From: a virus
Taxonomy: Duplodnaviria; Caudoviricetes
IMG/VR virus record: IMGVR_UViG_3300033076_001145
Location: 128,001-192,000 of that record
Reading direction: 5' to 3' (one strand)
DNA length: 64,000 nucleotides
The notes beneath the pieces are model-generated. The model was not told the DNA's origin. It ran no database searches and saw only the letters and a program-made list of their open reading frames with translations. Shown one piece after another: positions 18,677 to 64,000 of this stretch. The translations under genes and the position numbers were made by a program. Positions within the stretch are counted from its first letter, which is position 1. Each line of letters begins with the position of its first letter.

Positions 18677-19403
18677 AATATTAAAAAGTTACAAGGGTTC
18701 CAATTTATTTTATCCCTTTAACAGGTCTTTATTTTTTTTGATATCAAAATAGGTATCAATTAATTTATCAATTCGTTTGTCAGTATATGAGTTGGACTCC
18801 TTAATAGAGTCGGAAACTTTGGTGTCCATACCTCTCCATATATCTACCAATTGTCTTTCCAATCTGTCATTATATTCCCTAAAATCAGATTGAATGTTTT
18901 GTCTTTCACTATCAATACGACGAGTAGTATATTCAATTTCCTGAGAAATTGTCCTCAATAATCCTTGAATATCTTCTCTCAGATTTCCAATTTCTGTTTG
19001 TTGTTTGTTAATCTTAAACATACCCCAAGTAATTACCCCAATAAAAATTAGAGCAAAAACCGAGAGCATACCTAAAACAAAATAAGTTGTTTCCATAATA
19101 TTTTCTCCTTTATTTCAAAGAACCCTTGTAACTTCTAAGAAAATATAATAAAGGAATTTTAACTAATCAACCAGATTAATATATCAATAATACTCATTAC
19201 GAAAAATGCAATCGTAAATTCACCAAAGAGACCAATCAGTTCAATTTCAAAATCAATATAATAAACTTTTTTCTTATAATAATTCCAAAACCTAACAAAG
19301 AAAGTCACAAATAGACACTGAAGGATAAAGTTCGTCATTTTACAAATATAAACAAAAAACCCCACCTAATAAAGATGGGGTTTTCAACAATTATGTTTTA
19401 GTA

Positions 19404-23439: not shown

Positions 23440-23994
23440 TTAATTCAACCATTTTCTAACAGTATTGTCAGTAACTCCGAACTTTCGTGCGACTGAACTA
23501 TAACCTTCGTTAGCCACCATTTCAAATATAACTGATTTTTCCGGTCTGTCAACCTTTCTTCTTGATTTGTGAGCACATTCTTTACATTTATTCCCCCACT
23601 TACTTATCTCACATCCACAATCAGAGCAGTTATATTTTTTTGGTTCAGCTAAAGTAATCCATTTATCACTCTTTTCCAAATCATATTTTTCAATTTTTTT
23701 ACTAACATTTTCAATCATTAAGTCAGGAGAATGAACTTCTCTGTGACAATTTGCACACAAAACCATACATTTTTCAAATTCAGACATAATCCACTCCATA
23801 TTTGAATTAGATAGTGTTCTTGAATCTAATTGACTTTCTTTTGTATCTTTATCAATGTGGTGGAATTCTAAAGCCGCTAAATTTTTATTATATCCACAAA
23901 TTTCACATCCACCTCCTTTTAAATTAATTAAATGAGTTTTTCTCTTCAAAGACCTCATTACCTGATATTCATAAGTGTTCCCTTGTTTTCTCAT
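23440..23994 (-). CDS. HNH endonuclease with Zn-finger and HTH tail
   Basis: CEICG, LEFHH, LCANCHREVH, C-terminal HTH; abuts tRNA. Confidence 0.85.
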   Translation of the reverse strand: MRKQGNTYEYQVMRSLKRKTHLINLKGGGCEICGYNKNLAALEFHHIDKDTKESQLDSRTLSNSNMEWIMSEFEKCMVLCANCHREVHSPDLMIENVSKKIEKYDLEKSDKWITLAEPKKYNCSDCGCEISKWGNKCKECAHKSRRKVDRPEKSVIFEMVANEGYSSVARKFGVTDNTVRKWLN

Positions 23995-25981: not shown

Positions 25982-26776
25982 TTAGAATTTTGTTCCGCAG
26001 TGTGGACAGAATTTATGATTATCTTTCTTTCTCTTACTTCCACAATTTGTGCAATAAAGAACATTCACCTCTTTTGCTTCAACTGGCTTTTCTGACATTG
26101 GCATTAGTCTCCAAGTTGAATATGACGATGGGAAAGAATTAAAATCCATATTCACTGATGTAAATTCCTGATTTGAACTTCCACCTTTTTCAACACGACC
26201 TGTTTCTTTAAACCTGTCAGTTGATAATGACTTCTTTAGATTTTGAGAAGTGTTATAATCAACATTATTATTTAAGTTATAGGATGTGTTGGTGAAATAA
26301 CTATTATTTCCCGATGTTAAGTTTGTTGTGGTGTTATAGAGTTTAATATTACCACCAGTAGTATTGTAACCACCATAATATCCATAATCACCGTGTTCAT
26401 TTGTAAAAGTTATACTTCCACCATAAGGATTTTCTTCATAGAACTCAACCTCAACAACTCCGTTGTTTTTGATTGCCTCTTGAACCTCTTTGGATTTGGC
26501 ATTGACCTCATAGGTTTCAAACTTGAACTTTCTTGCTTCGTCCAAATACCTTTCAAGAAAAACCCTTTGACCTGGTCTTAATACAACTCCACCACCACCG
26601 ATGTAGTTTCCGTTAATTTTAAGTTTTGCTAAAACTGAATTTTGTTGGGGGTTGAAGATTTCAACTTCAAATTCATCCCCATCTTTTAGATAAACGACAC
26701 TTCCATTTTGTTTTAGTCGTTGTTTCCCTACTGTAATGAAAGCAGTAGGATTCTTTTTAAATGATTTGTAATACAT
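25982..26776 (-). CDS. Hypothetical protein with C-terminal zinc ribbon
   Basis: CTNCG...FCPHCGTKF. Confidence 0.7.
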   Translation of the reverse strand: MYYKSFKKNPTAFITVGKQRLKQNGSVVYLKDGDEFEVEIFNPQQNSVLAKLKINGNYIGGGGVVLRPGQRVFLERYLDEARKFKFETYEVNAKSKEVQEAIKNNGVVEVEFYEENPYGGSITFTNEHGDYGYYGGYNTTGGNIKLYNTTTNLTSGNNSYFTNTSYNLNNNVDYNTSQNLKKSLSTDRFKETGRVEKGGSSNQEFTSVNMDFNSFPSSYSTWRLMPMSEKPVEAKEVNVLYCTNCGSKRKKDNHKFCPHCGTKF

Positions 26777-26888
26777 TTTTTTACCTTATTTTATTGTTTA
26801 TGTTTATTGAACCCCACTTCGTTGGTATTTCTCCAACTCAACTGTCTCAAAGGACAGGTGGACCTCAGCAACAAGGTTTCATTAATAA

Positions 26889-27239
26889 TTATAAGGTAAT
26901 TTGTTTTTGTGTAAAGATTAATTGGGGGGTATTCTCAACCATCAGCTCCTTTGTTGGAAATGATATCGGGGTATTTGTAACCTTCATTTGGGTGGTATTC
27001 TCAACCCATCGTCCAATAACTTTTTCAGAATCAGAGCGTTGTAAAGAAAAGTAGGAATAAATTTCGTTAGTTAAATTAAAATCAATAAAACACCAACCAT
27101 CATCTTTATCAAATCTTATTCGAGCGTATTTATCATTCTCTGAATTTACAAAACAAATTTTATCATTACCCATATCAATCTGAATGAAGTCCTGACTATC
27201 CAAATAAGAAAATATTACTCTTTCTAAATGTTTGTCCAT
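26889..27239 (-). CDS. FSYLD/WVEN paralog; C-terminus encoded by repeat, spacer and second repeat
   Basis: MDKHLERVIFSYLDSQDF...WVENTTQMKVTNT-PISFPTKELM-VENTPQ. Confidence 0.8.
   Translation of the reverse strand: MDKHLERVIFSYLDSQDFIQIDMGNDKICFVNSENDKYARIRFDKDDGWCFIDFNLTNEIYSYFSLQRSDSEKVIGRWVENTTQMKVTNTPISFPTKELMVENTPQLIFTQKQITL
26920..27005 (+). CRISPR. Mini-array B: partial repeat ending 26939, 30-nt spacer 26940-26969, repeat 26970-27005
   Basis: GGTATTTGTAACCTTCATTTGGGTGGTATTCTCAAC. Confidence 0.75.
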
Positions 27240-34351: not shown

Positions 34352-34546
34352 AACAAACCATCTACGCTAACCGTAGTTGTAGATTTTACTGATGGTTGGT
34401 TCCCCATCACCTGTTATGTGTGCACCATAGAGCAGGGTCCATCACAGTATACCTTGGGTCATTTTACACTTCATTTGTGGTAGCTACTCCACGGTGAAGC
34501 CAAGGTCTCTTTCAACGGTGCTAATCCGTCTTCTGTAAGGTTTGTT
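34352..34546 (-). ncRNA. Candidate ~195-nt structured RNA
   Basis: Terminal helix AACAAACC/GGTTTGTT, several internal hairpins; lies between tRNA-Tyr and a terminator. Confidence 0.55.
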
Positions 34547-35061: not shown

Positions 35062-35950
35062 ATTTAATATTTCAATTTAACATTCAGTCGTTCCTGAATT
35101 GTTTTACAAATGTAAGTAATAAATACTCTCGTGTCAAGAAAAATTTTATTTATATACTCTCACTACTCCATTTTTACCTATAATTGAGTCCTGATGTGGT
35201 TCTAATGTGAAATGTACTGTGTGACCTAAACAAGGATAGTATCTATGTTTAACACACTCTTCCCACTCTCTACGAAATTTACCATTATTACCATTAGTAT
35301 ATGTCTTCCATTTAACACATTCTTGACATTCACTATTGTAATAAACAAAATACGATGTTTTGAAGATAGTAAAGACCACTAATCCTATTATCAAAAAAGT
35401 GAATAAGATGTATAGTTCCCCGTCCTTATTCCACTTATCGTATGTTTTTCTCCAGTTACTTTTCATAATTATTTTTTTGTAGTGCGCTTTCTCATTACGC
35501 AATACCTAACTATTTTATTTTTACAGTTGACTTAATCTCTCCCGATAAATTAACACGAATATCTAAAGCGTGTAACGAATCAATAACTATATATCTTTCG
35601 CTGTCTATCTTATACACAACACCATTAGGGTACTTTGTTTGTAACATCTCTATGTCTTGAGATATGGTGGTTGTACTTGTGTCACATCCAGTTAAAAACA
35701 TCCCTATGCTTAATATCGCAATTATTCTTTTCATATTTTTTATTCTTCTTCGTCTTTGGTTAATTCAGTATACTCTAATGCAAATTGTATTAACCCATTA
35801 AGGTATTGCCACTTTTGACATCCGTTTGGGTAACTTGGGAATATCTCTTTAAGTTTTTGTTCTTGCCATTCTCTTTCAGAAGGGGTGGGCGATAGCCATT
35901 GACCATCAACATCATCTGGTTTTATGTACCAACTCATATCTTTATTTTTT

Positions 35951-47313: not shown

Positions 47314-47413
47314 TGTAGTCAGAACAGGATTCGAACCTATACGTTAGCTTTACATTTCGTTGACTAACCGCACCTTGAAGCGAGCGTCTTCCATTCCGCC
47401 ACCTGACTATGCC

Positions 47414-47489: not shown

Positions 47490-47775
47490 ATATTGTTGAT
47501 AGTGTTGGGATACCCGTCTCGTCCCAATCTTAACAGCTTTGTTGAAGTTTTACAAGGCCTTGGCTGAGGGTGGTGATTCCCGATTCCACTCTGGATTGTC
47601 GACATCCGTTAAGTGGGGAAATCCACTATCAAATATTTTTAAAGTTACTCAACCCCTCACGTCCTTTTACTCTTGGGGTTAAAGGTCTTGCGGACCACCA
47701 TAACGGGTTTATCATACTAGGAAGACGCTCAGTATATAAACCTTGCACCTCTCTGAAGTAACTATTTAATTATCT

Positions 47776-47800
47776 GTTTCAAAGAACTTCTACAAATGTA
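47776..47800 (-). promoter_or_regulatory. TAnnTTTG promoter element followed by boxA-like GTTCTTTGAAAC
   Basis: + strand caaatgta 47793-47800 and gtttcaaagaac 47776-47787. Confidence 0.6.
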
Positions 47801-47931
47801 TGGTGTTTTTTTCAATTCACCAAATTTTATTTGTTAATTTTTGAAGTGTGATTTAATCTTCATCCAAACTATGTCGGGGTAATTAAAAACCCACCAAAAA
47901 AACCAATATATCTTTTTCATAATTTTAATTT

Positions 47932-54270: not shown

Positions 54271-54282
54271 ATGTCAAAGAAC
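54271..54282 (-). promoter_or_regulatory. boxA-like antitermination site GTTCTTTGACAT
   Basis: Resembles rrn boxA; directly before the first tRNA of the operon. Confidence 0.6.
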
Positions 54283-54502: not shown

Positions 54503-54533
54503 CAAAAGTATAACTATTTTTCAGTTATGTCAA
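54503..54533 (-). promoter_or_regulatory. Promoter TTGACA-N17-TACTTTTG
   Basis: Bacteroidota -7 consensus TAnnTTTG; same spacing as the three promoters at 63.76-64.0 kb. Confidence 0.7.
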
Positions 54534-61671: not shown

Positions 61672-62508
61672 TTATTTAAGTAAGTTGTAGTATTCTTTGA
61701 AGTGTTTGATTCTATCAGGTAATCCAATTGTTCCTCCGTTTACTCTTTTAGTTACCGCAGTTACCGTAGCGTCATCAGCACCCTTATCACAAATAGACCA
61801 AAGTTTATTTGAGTCAAAGAAAAATGCCGCAGATGCTAATGGATATTTGGTAGCAACTAAATCAGGGTTAGATACAGTATCTTCTCCGATAAACTTTGCG
61901 AAGTTAGTATAATTTTGCTTACCAGTCAACTGAATATACCCTCTTCCGCGAAATTTAAACCCTTCACCTGTTGATTCATCACCATTACCCATTCTTCCAC
62001 CATACACTTTAGATGCAATCTTTTCAGGGTTTCTAGCATATCCTTCAGCTAAATTACCAGGGAAATACTTTGGGAAGATTTTCTTTAGTCCGTCAGCAGA
62101 ATAATTTAAATTCTCCTGAACTGCCTTAAAACCTCCTGATTCGTGACCACACTGAGCCAAGAAATGAGCAAGTCTTAATGGATTTGTAATATTAAATTTC
62201 TTAGCAGTGTCAGGAATTTGAGCAATTACACTATCAGGAATATGTCCTTTCAAATTTTGTAATTTAAATTCTGAACTTACAGGAATTACAACATCTTCTT
62301 TTATCACTTGAGCTGGTTGGGTAGGAGCCCCAAACATTTTTGACCAAGTCCCATCACCAACAATTCCGTCAGCAGTTAATCCGTTTGCCGCTTGCCATTC
62401 TTTTACTTTAGCTGCAGTTCCGTTACCGAATATTCCATCAGCAGTTAATCCTAATTTTGCTTGGAGTTTTTTAACATCTTCTCCGTTTGAACCAATTTTT
62501 AATAACAT
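61672..62508 (-). CDS. Endolysin: peptidoglycan-binding domain + glycoside hydrolase family 19
   Basis: DGIFG/DGIVG PG-binding motifs; FLAQCGHES, ENLNYS, RGRGYIQLTG, VNGG. Confidence 0.9.
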   Translation of the reverse strand: MLLKIGSNGEDVKKLQAKLGLTADGIFGNGTAAKVKEWQAANGLTADGIVGDGTWSKMFGAPTQPAQVIKEDVVIPVSSEFKLQNLKGHIPDSVIAQIPDTAKKFNITNPLRLAHFLAQCGHESGGFKAVQENLNYSADGLKKIFPKYFPGNLAEGYARNPEKIASKVYGGRMGNGDESTGEGFKFRGRGYIQLTGKQNYTNFAKFIGEDTVSNPDLVATKYPLASAAFFFDSNKLWSICDKGADDATVTAVTKRVNGGTIGLPDRIKHFKEYYNLLK

Positions 62509-62821
62509 AATTTTATAGTTTTAACTATAAATATTTTAAAATTGATTACTTTTTGGTGTAAATGTAAAAATGTTCTCCGATTTCTTTCGTATATCTTTCA
62601 ATATACTTACCCTCACAAGCTTTTTTTAGGTCACTGGTCAATGCAAAATGTTCATCCTCATCTAAGGTAGGTTGTATTTTTATTTCATATTCCATCTTAT
62701 TTGGTAATTCTTTTTCTTTCACCTCAGCCCAAGATGGAAGAACTTCTTTTAAGTTTTCTAGTATTGACATATTAGTAATTATCTACTTATAACAAAAAAA
62801 CCCATCAGAACGACGGGTCAA

Positions 62822-63656
62822 ATAAACGAAGCCTGAGATTACAGCTTTGATTGAGAACCTTTGGAAGGATTATTGTTTCCCTTCGTATCCACTTCCTTTT
62901 GAGAAGTATTTCTCAGTGACGGTCTTTTAAGTTTACCACTCTTTGAGGTTTGAATTACTCTATCAGTACTCAACTCTTTCCGAGGTTGCCACCCCAGTTC
63001 GTCCTTGCGGGATTAAAGGTCTTTCGTAACAATACACATTGACTTGGGGTCTTTGTGTGCAATGAACGGCTCATTACTATGTAGTCACCTTTCACTCAAA
63101 CCTGATGGACACTTTTCCTTAATGTATTTTAATTAATTGGATAATTTAAATTCCATTTAGTTTTGTGTCGTAGATGTGTCAGAGTAGTGGTCCACCGTAA
63201 GCTCCGTTTCCTTTTGAGAAACGAAATACTAAACTACTCCGTGAAGTGTCCCCACCTCCATATTCCAAGATTACTTCATAAAGAGACCTTGGTAGGTCTG
63301 ACTTTAGGGGTAGTAGCGACACCACTCGTTCTCCACCTTACCTTTCGGTTTTAAGTCCTCTATCATATTGGGACCCGCAATAGTGTGATTGGATAATCAC
63401 ATTTCTTACAGAGTTCCTATGGGTTATTCTTATTACTCTTCCGAGTTCAACCTGACAATCTACTTTGCCAGGTCACCCTACCATTTTCCCTACGAAGTTA
63501 TCCTCGGTACCGAAGGTTTGGTGATATCCCACTTGTGTACTTGAGTTCAATTTCCCTTACGGGATTTCAAACCGCAGTCTCCTCAACACGGGGGAGACCA
63601 CTTTATCCTACTTTCGTAGTTTATTTAAGGACCATACACGGCCCATTATCGTTTAT
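62822..63656 (-). ncRNA. Candidate giant (~835 nt) structured RNA, GOLLD-like in size and context
   Basis: No credible ORF; terminal helix ATAAACGA/TCGTTTAT; many GNRA-capped hairpins on the minus strand; promoters and boxA upstream, terminator downstream. Confidence 0.7.
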
Positions 63657-63720
63657 CAGATTAAATGTCTCATAATCAACCCGAAGGTCTCATAATCAAC
63701 TACTGAATGGATAATCTATT

Positions 63721-64000
63721 TTTTCAAAGAACGTTTCGGACATTTCCGAATTGTTTTACAAATTTACGACATTTATTTCTATTTGTCAAGTTATTTGTTA
63801 ACTTTTTTTTGAGATTTGGAAACTTTAATCGTTTTACCACTCTGTGAACCTTAATCTCAAATCCTTTACAAACTTACAACATCTTTTCCAATTTGTCAAA
63901 CTTTTTGTAAAGTTTTTTTTAGTTTTGACTACCGAGTATCTTTCATTTCCTATAAGTGTCAAATCTTTTACAAACTTAAAGCAAATATTCGGTAGTGTCA
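63721..64000 (-). promoter_or_regulatory. Three tandem TTGACA-N17-TAnnTTTG promoters plus boxA
   Basis: -7 boxes at 63759-63766, 63869-63876, 63971-63978, each with (T)TGACA 17 nt upstream; GTTCTTTGAAAA at 63721-63732. Confidence 0.7.

What the first reader, a model, noticed from the sequence alone, without database searches (positions are those of the whole stretch)
62822..64000. ~835-nt structured RNA driven by three tandem promoters and a boxA
Seen: ORF-free and GC-elevated, with paired ends. Minus-strand hairpins include CTAC-GAAA-GTAG, CCC-GTAA-GGG, CC-GAAA-GG and a twice-repeated TTC-TCAAAAG-GAA loop (~62890 and ~63205). Upstream are three equally spaced TTGACA-N17-TAnnTTTG promoters and GTTCTTTGAAAA, an rrn-like arrangement implying very high expression. 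Knowledge: GOLLD (~800 nt) and ROOL RNAs occur in phages near tRNAs. I cannot confirm the family.
Basis: partly seen in the sequence, partly recalled or inferred. Interest (0 to 1): 0.7.

Follow-up and report, generated by a model that had tools for sequence, protein, structure and literature searches.

The report
Phage GOLLD RNA with rRNA-style leader
The gene-free stretch is a complete copy of GOLLD, a known giant phage RNA that builds protein-free cages, so the element itself is ordinary. The less familiar part is that it is driven by three host-type promoters and the same boxA signal that its host phylum places before ribosomal RNA genes.

Summary
Window 62822-63657 (minus strand) is an ORF-free, GC-richer, highly structured RNA. 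It is a full-length GOLLD RNA: Rfam RF02032 scores 326 bits (threshold 150, E 1e-92) over 62830-63241. The 403 nt upstream (63242-63644) are the GOLLD 5' domain, shared with 22 other non-redundant GOLLD loci and strongly supported by covariation.

The expression signals are also real:
- Three tandem TTGACA-N17-TAnnTTTG promoters of the Bacteroidota type.
- A small covarying hairpin.
- GTTCTTTGAAA.

That word is kept in 22 of 23 non-redundant related GOLLD loci. It matches, exactly or with one mismatch, the word found 78-305 nt upstream of 16S genes in sampled Bacteroidota genomes, that is, the rrn boxA position.

I infer, but did not show, that host RNA polymerase modified by Nus factors makes this RNA in bulk and resistant to termination, as it does rRNA. 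GOLLD's function remains unknown.

I found no paper in the searched library linking GOLLD to boxA. This scan has already noted the same GOLLD-plus-boxA leader on other phage DNA several times.

The parts
63971..64000 (-). Distal promoter P-A: TTGACA (64001-63996, first base just outside the window), N17, TAAGTTTG (63978-63971)
   Evidence: Sequence match only; the transcription start was not mapped.
63869..63899 (-). Middle promoter P-B: TTGACA-N17-TAAGTTTG, with an A-tract upstream
   Evidence: repeat families D1/D2, spacing 110 and 102 nt.
63759..63789 (-). Proximal promoter P-C: TTGACA-N17-TAAATTTG. The predicted start lies in TAAAACAA (63758-63751).
   Evidence: The same promoter-leader module is seen in relatives. 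TAnnTTTG is the Bacteroidota -7 box (PMC7366714).
63735..63750 (-). Leader hairpin TTCGGA-aatg-TCCGAA (boxB-like), 2 nt before boxA
   Evidence: In relatives the stem sequence differs but pairing is kept: TTAGGG/CCTAAT, TCGGG/CCGA, GTTACTC/GAGTAAC, GATTT/AATC.
63722..63732 (-). boxA-type word GTTCTTTGAAA
63703..63716 (-). Conserved leader word GATTATCCATTCAG, role unknown
63664..63700 (-). Window-specific 20-nt tandem duplication (GTTGATTATGAGAC twice) around a UUCG hairpin, in the variable part of the leader
   Evidence: family D6. The box-to-core distance varies from 36 to 135 nt among relatives.
63242..63644 (-). GOLLD 5' domain, about 403 nt, 22 helices
62830..63241 (-). GOLLD 3' domain (the part modelled by Rfam RF02032), including an AU-rich variable linker at about 63180-63110
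   Evidence: 326.1 bits, model 1-416 of 416.
62821..62829 (-). 3' arm of a 9-bp end helix with 63657-63649. Present here and in a few relatives, not conserved.
62792..62819 (-). Intrinsic terminator: 9-bp stem GACCCGTCG...TGATGGGTT followed by a T run

Best explanation
The locus is a stand-alone gene for a full-length GOLLD RNA in a large, roughly 209-kb uncultured phage of Bacteroidota. The conserved core is about 815 nt (63644-62830). The primary transcript would be about 960 nt from the proximal promoter to the terminator.

Shown:
- Family membership of the 3' domain.
- Homology and covariation of the 5' domain.
- Presence and conservation of the promoter, hairpin and boxA leader.
- Match of the box, exact or with one mismatch, to the word in Bacteroidota rrn leaders and spacers.

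Inferred:
- Host RNA polymerase with the primary Bacteroidota sigma factor starts at three tandem strong promoters.
- The nascent leader's boxA binds NusB/NusE (S10) and converts the polymerase into the termination-resistant form used for rRNA. This would let an untranslated 0.8-kb RNA be made in bulk without Rho termination.
- The RNA then folds into its two domains. By homology with the solved env-38 GOLLD, it would assemble into a homo-14-mer cage.

What the cage does is unknown.
For: - GOLLD identity: RF02032 at 62830-63241 scores 326.1 bits against a gathering score of 150, E 1.1e-92, over the full model. It is the only copy in the 208,634-bp record.
- 5' domain: a 31-nt motif from it recurs in 95 IMG/VR stretches, usually 750-806 nt upstream of the GOLLD 3'-end motif. 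All 16 representative loci tested pass the Rfam GOLLD threshold.
- Covariation: in 23 sequences of 59-91% identity, 99 pairs form in 96.2% of cells, against 36-45% when partners are slid. 76 pairs show changes on both sides, against 17-29 when slid, and 0 of 500 shuffles reach this.
- Leader box: GTTCTTTGAAA (at most 1 mismatch) lies 36-135 nt upstream of the core in 67 of 69 loci and in 22 of 23 representatives. Box columns are at least 90% conserved while most flanking columns are 40-60%. In 16 of 22 representatives the box starts 25-28 nt after a TAnnTTTG box.
- Enrichment: 94 boxes lie within 150 nt upstream of GOLLD, against 62 in the other 1.77 Mb of those loci.
- Host rrn: 17 of the 21 Bacteroidota 16S loci with at least 190 nt of upstream sequence have the word (at most 1 mismatch, exact in 5 genomes) 78-305 nt upstream of 16S. 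Many also have GTTCTTTGACA in the 16S-23S spacer, often just after a hairpin.
- Promoter rarity: only 7 TTGACA...TAnnTTTG promoters occur in the whole record. Three stand before GOLLD and three before tRNA groups.
- Published facts: the cage structure and domain sizes (5' region 1-420, 3' region 421-833) come from PMC12286853.
Against:
- Nus binding and antitermination were not tested and cannot be tested here.
- The link is not universal. An Acinetobacter phage GOLLD embedded in a tRNA array shows no gamma-proteobacterial boxA nearby, and one huge-phage locus (L004) lacks the box.
- From my own memory, GTTCTTTGAAA-like boxA words also occur in other phyla, so the word alone does not identify the host. 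The host call rests on the -7 box.
- The many loci are related phages, so the counts are not independent events.
- Cage formation is extrapolated from a different GOLLD member whose sequence I could not compare directly.
Confidence: 0.85

Rival explanations
1. GTTCTTTGAAA and the neighbouring GATTATCCATTCAG are not a Nus site. They would instead be part of the mature GOLLD fold, a processing site for 5' maturation, or a contact site for another partner. The likeness to rrn boxA would then be convergent or incidental.
For: A second conserved word (GATTATCCRTTCAG) follows the box and has no known rrn counterpart. A similar UUAUCC loop occurs in a 5'-domain hairpin and is complementary to the invariant GGAUAA of the core. 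In L003 and L023 the box follows a tRNA rather than a promoter.
Against: The distance from the box to the core varies from 36 to 135 nt with unrelated sequence in between, which does not fit a fixed structural role. The same word stands in host-phylum 16S leaders and spacers. It also stands after another promoter in this phage (47777-47787). No conserved complement was found.
Confidence: 0.12
2. The leader hairpin plus the U-rich GUUCUUUG acts as a weak intrinsic terminator or pause that limits GOLLD synthesis, not as an antitermination signal.
For: The simple scan lists 63750-63735 with the tail ACGTTCTTTG as terminator-like.
Against: The stem has only 6 pairs and the tail is interrupted. The same hairpin-box syntax precedes 16S genes, which are not attenuated there. 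Three tandem promoters argue for high output.
Confidence: 0.03

Closest known systems
GOLLD RNA (Rfam RF02032); env-38 GOLLD, 833 nt, D7 homo-14-mer cage solved by cryo-EM (Kretsch et al. 2025, PMC12286853)
   Same: Full-length match to the conserved 3' domain. A two-domain layout of about 403 + 412 nt, against 420 + 413 nt in env-38. An AU-rich variable linker between the domains. A phage genome rich in tRNA genes. Many GNRA-type loops.
   Different: A stand-alone gene with its own promoters and terminator, 8.5 kb from the nearest tRNA array, and no tRNA in the linker. The 5' domain belongs to a lake-phage clade and I could not align it with env-38. Oligomerisation was not tested.
Bacterial rrn operon leader (tandem P1/P2 promoters, boxB-boxA-boxC, Nus/SuhB/S4 antitermination complex)
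   Same: Tandem strong host-type promoters, then a hairpin, then the host phylum's boxA word, in front of a long untranslated structured RNA.
   Different: The cargo is a phage RNA of unknown function. No boxC equivalent was identified. There are three promoters rather than two. No spacer boxA is needed. Function was not shown.
Phage T7 early region (promoters A1-A3 followed by boxA) and lambdoid nut sites
   Same: Phages placing a host boxA behind strong early host-polymerase promoters. The T7 boxA antitermination element is cited in PMC3709561.
   Different: There the antiterminated transcripts are mRNAs. Here the transcript is a single non-coding RNA ending at its own terminator.
ROOL RNA
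   Same: A large ornate phage RNA near tRNAs that forms a cage (PMC12286853).
   Different: No Rfam match in the window. Its sequence and fold are distinct.

Membership tests
GOLLD RNA (RF02032) | Match of the conserved 3' domain to the covariance model above the gathering score | tested here: met
   326.1 bits against 150, E 1.1e-92, model 1-416 of 416, not truncated.
GOLLD RNA (RF02032) | Long-range enclosing helix of the 3' domain (the [[[ ]]] pairs of the model) | tested here: met
   In the alignment, CAGGUUUGAG pairs with UUCAAACCU and no non-canonical marks fall in those columns. The bases differ from the consensus on both sides.
GOLLD RNA (RF02032) | A structured but less conserved 5' domain of about 400 nt joined to the 3' domain | tested here: met
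   63242-63644 aligns with 22 other non-redundant GOLLD loci. 99 pairs are 96.2% paired, and 76 pairs show changes on both sides.
GOLLD RNA (RF02032) | Phage or prophage setting, often near tRNA genes | tested here: met
   IMG/VR virus record of 208,634 bp with 29 tRNA genes. An endolysin gene lies directly downstream.
GOLLD RNA (RF02032) | RNA-only homo-14-mer cage | not testable with these tools
   Known for env-38 only (PMC12286853).
GOLLD RNA (RF02032) | Expression during the lytic cycle | not testable with these tools
rrn-type boxA antitermination leader | boxA word matching that of the host phylum's rrn leaders | tested here: met
   GTTCTTTGAAA (at most 1 mismatch) lies 78-305 nt upstream of 16S in 17 of 21 usable Bacteroidota loci. 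Spacer copies read GTTCTTTGACA.
rrn-type boxA antitermination leader | Position in the transcribed leader just after a promoter, preceded by a hairpin | tested here: met
   The box starts 26 nt after the -7 box and 2 nt after a covarying hairpin. The start site itself is inferred.
rrn-type boxA antitermination leader | Conservation of the box among related loci beyond that of its flanks | tested here: met
   Present in 22 of 23 representatives. Box columns are at least 90% conserved and most flanking columns 40-60%. 94 boxes lie within 150 nt upstream of GOLLD against 62 in the other 1.77 Mb.
rrn-type boxA antitermination leader | Binding of NusB-NusE and termination-resistant transcription | not testable with these tools
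   Needs biochemistry or genetics.
rrn-type boxA antitermination leader | boxC-type element after boxA | tested here: inconclusive
   A conserved GATTATCCRTTCAG follows the box in GOLLD leaders. It has no evident counterpart in the sampled rrn leaders.
ROOL / HEARO / group I-II introns / RNase P | Match to the Rfam model at gathering score | tested here: not met
   No such match anywhere in the window.

The most novel reading that the evidence does not exclude
The rrn-style leader may do more than raise yield. In Bacteroidota phages GOLLD would be built as an rRNA mimic. Either the Nus-modified polymerase chaperones its co-transcriptional folding and cage assembly as it does for rRNA, or massive GOLLD transcription from three rrn-type promoters draws Nus factors and S10/S4 away from host rrn operons and so curbs host ribosome synthesis late in infection.
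Probability: 0.12. Interest if true: 0.75.

Novelty: new member of a known kind. Interest (0 to 1): 0.38.

Why it matters
GOLLD is one of the largest natural RNAs with no known function. Knowing how it is made narrows the options for what it does.

A conserved host rrn-type promoter and boxA leader implies three things:
- The phage needs a great deal of this RNA.
- The RNA is made by host polymerase.
- The phage uses the cell's rRNA-specific, Rho-resistant transcription mode to make it.

This gives direct experiments: NusB-NusE binding, boxA mutants and Rho inhibition. It also gives a practical rule for annotating GOLLD transcription units in Bacteroidota phages. The RNA itself is an ordinary member of its family.

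Tried and rejected
- Relatives of the virus record cannot be drawn by the genome search.
It proved to be a chance match inside a coding gene with no GOLLD. I used it only as a handle to sample Bacteroidota genomes, not as host evidence.
- A literature search for the box as a text string returned only primer sequences.
- Generality across phyla: no gamma-proteobacterial boxA (GCTCTTTAACAA, up to 2-3 mismatches) lies near the GOLLD of Acinetobacter phage Bestia. I therefore do not claim the link for all GOLLD RNAs.
- 'Paired ends' as a conserved processing stem: the 9-bp helix exists here and in 3 of the 18 other loci tested. Relatives 90-91% identical (L006, L011) keep the 5' arm but lack the 3' arm, and no compensatory changes were seen. 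I rejected it as a family feature.
- A third UUAUCCA copy in the linker (63145) is shared with only one relative, so I did not pursue it.
- ROOL and other large RNA families gave no Rfam match.

Full report
**What is there.** The window is C1:128001-192000 of a 208,634-bp IMG/VR virus record estimated 71% complete, with GC 0.32. Between 62822 and about 63700 no ORF exceeds 63 aa. GC there rises to 0.39-0.44, against 0.25-0.35 around it. The TTC-TCAAAAG-GAA loop occurs twice, at 62888-62905 and 63203-63220. The two ends pair, 63657-63649 with 62829-62821.

**Identity.** cmscan of the whole window against Rfam 15 gives GOLLD (RF02032) at 62830-63241 on the minus strand. The score is 326.1 bits against a gathering score of 150, E 1.1e-92, over model positions 1-416 of 416. 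It is the only copy in the record. ROOL, HEARO, introns and RNase P gave no match. The Rfam model covers only the conserved 3' half of GOLLD.

**The 5' half.** The upstream half aligns with the regions upstream of GOLLD 3' domains in two huge uncultured phages (LR745206, LR756502). It aligns more distantly with Acinetobacter phage Bestia.
- A 31-nt motif from its start recurs in 95 IMG/VR stretches. In most of those long enough to hold it, the GOLLD 3'-end motif lies 750-806 nt downstream.
- All 16 representative loci that I ran through Rfam pass the GOLLD threshold at 221-330 bits.
- After clustering at 92% identity, 23 sequences remain, 59-91% identical to the window.
- RNAalifold on their 5' domains gives 99 pairs in 22 helices.
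- 96.2% of cells pair, against 36-45% when partners are slid by 1-3 columns. 76 pairs show changes on both sides, against 17-29 when slid. None of 500 shuffles reaches these values.

So 63242-63644 is a genuine GOLLD 5' domain. The conserved core is about 815 nt, split 403 + 412. The solved env-38 GOLLD splits 420 + 413 (PMC12286853).

**Ends.** A 9-bp stem with a T run at 62819-62792 is a good intrinsic terminator. The end helix exists in this sequence and in 3 of the 18 other loci tested. Relatives 90-91% identical keep the 5' arm without the 3' arm, and I saw no compensatory change. It is therefore not a family feature.

**Promoters.** Three copies of TTGACA-N17-TA(A/G)(A/G)TTTG lie at 64001-63971, 63899-63869 and 63789-63759, spaced 102 and 110 nt apart. 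The last two have A-tracts upstream.
- TAnnTTTG is the -7 box of the primary sigma factor of Bacteroidota (PMC7366714). This points to a Bacteroidota host.
- The full pattern occurs 5 times in the window against 0.17 expected, all on the minus strand.
- It occurs 7 times in the whole record: three before GOLLD, three before tRNA groups (23552, 35137, 54533) and one elsewhere.
- Related GOLLD loci carry 0-2 such promoters. The window's closest relatives also carry three.

**The boxA word.** GTTCTTTGAAA lies at 63732-63722, 26 nt after the proximal -7 box and 2 nt after the hairpin TTCGGA-aatg-TCCGAA. It has three exact copies in the window against 0.17 expected, all on the transcribed strand.
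- Among related GOLLD loci, 67 of 69 have the word (at most 1 mismatch) 36-135 nt upstream of the core. So do 22 of 23 representatives.
- Box columns are at least 90% conserved while most flanking columns are 40-60%. In 16 of 22 representatives the box starts 25-28 nt after a -7 box.
- In the fetched loci, 94 boxes lie within 150 nt upstream of a GOLLD core. Only 62 lie in the remaining 1.77 Mb.
- The hairpin before the box changes sequence while keeping its pairing: TTAGGG/CCTAAT, TCGGG/CCGA, GTTACTC/GAGTAAC, GATTT/AATC.

To see what the word is, I sampled 41 Bacteroidota genomes and took their 16S loci.
- 17 of the 21 loci with at least 190 nt of upstream sequence have the word (at most 1 mismatch, exact in five genomes) 78-305 nt upstream of 16S.
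- Many have GTTCTTTGACA in the 16S-23S spacer.
- In several leaders the word follows a hairpin and a TAnnTTTG box at a similar distance.

A leader copy plus a spacer copy is the signature of rrn boxA. That last statement is my own knowledge of rrn operons.

**Mechanism.**
- Shown: a GOLLD gene with its own terminator sits behind tandem host-type promoters, a covarying hairpin and the host phylum's rrn boxA word. This syntax is conserved in its clade.
- Inferred: the nascent boxA recruits NusB-NusE and the rest of the rrn antitermination complex. An untranslated 0.8-kb RNA would otherwise be a natural Rho target. Recruitment would let it be completed at a high rate. The product would then assemble into the 14-mer cage described for env-38.
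- I put about 0.65 on the Nus step and about 0.98 on GOLLD identity.
- Limits: there are no expression data. The link is not universal, since Bestia has no gamma-type boxA near its GOLLD and L004 lacks the box. The loci are related phages rather than independent events.

**Context.** Directly downstream are a 74-aa acidic ORF without family and an endolysin (PG_binding_1 plus GH19; phrog_181, E 1e-67). This fits the published rise of GOLLD expression during lysis (PMC12286853) but proves nothing. Upstream lie a NUDIX hydrolase, a DUF192 protein, a weak DHH-like protein below the Pfam cut-off and a DNA methylase.

**Novelty.** The RNA is a new member of a known family. In the searchable library no paper links GOLLD with boxA or antitermination. 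The cryo-EM paper mentions no native promoter. Phages placing boxA behind strong early promoters is known for T7 (PMC3709561) and for lambdoid phages. This scan has already recorded the same GOLLD-plus-boxA leader on other phage DNA several times. I re-derived it here independently before reading those notes. They are not independent evidence.

Noticed in passing
window 34384-34446 (-): freshwater-1 RNA (RF02979, 76.2 bits against a gathering score of 72). It lies at the end of a unit that starts with the strong promoter at 35137-35107 and holds tRNA-Met, tRNA-Glu and tRNA-Tyr.
   Followed up: no
window 23523-23552, 35107-35137, 54503-54533 (-): The TTGACA-N16-18-TAnnTTTG promoter class seems reserved for stable-RNA units. 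Apart from the three before GOLLD, each of these copies stands upstream of tRNA genes. Only one further copy exists in the 209-kb record.
   Followed up: partly
window 35085-35137 (-): This tRNA promoter shares TTTGTAAAACAATTC and a following hairpin (TTCAG-gaacga-CTGAA) with the proximal GOLLD promoter. It has GTTAAATTGAAA where GOLLD has the boxA word.
   Followed up: no
window 47650-47830 (-): An exact GTTCTTTGAAA (47787-47777) lies 5 nt after a TACATTTG -7 box with TTTG 20 nt upstream. A GC-richer, apparently structured stretch follows, upstream of the odd 'tRNA' at 47315-47408. It has no Rfam match at gathering score.
   Followed up: no
window 54272-54282 (-): GTTCTTTGACA, the form of the box seen in Bacteroidota 16S-23S spacers, sits 14 nt before the first tRNA of the 15-gene array. 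It comes just after the terminator-like hairpin of the leader region.
   Followed up: no
window 19113-19123 (-): The third exact GTTCTTTGAAA lies in a 5' untranslated leader, just before a ribosome-binding site and the ATG at 19096.
   Followed up: no
window 63715, 63397, 63145 (-): AUUAUCCA occurs three times in the transcript: in the leader, in a 5'-domain hairpin loop and in the linker. UUAUCC is complementary to the invariant GGAUAA at 63608-63603. The leader and hairpin-loop copies recur in relatives, while the linker copy does not.
   Followed up: partly
window 61672-62508 (-): An endolysin gene (PG_binding_1 + GH19, phrog_181) lies immediately downstream of the GOLLD terminator, after a 74-aa acidic ORF of no known family.
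   Followed up: partly
L018 2090-2488, L055 9868-10288, L014 2479-2849, L007 2717-3112: Several related phages carry a tmRNA gene within about 1-2 kb of their GOLLD gene. ARAGORN found no tmRNA in this phage's record.
   Followed up: no
L005 491-1269 (Acinetobacter phage Bestia, MW316733.1 about 26116-26894): A full GOLLD (221.8 bits) lies unannotated between tRNA-Asn and tRNA-Asp of this cultured phage.
   Followed up: partly
L049 6002-6189: A group I intron match (61.3 bits) lies close upstream of the GOLLD gene of a related phage.
   Followed up: no
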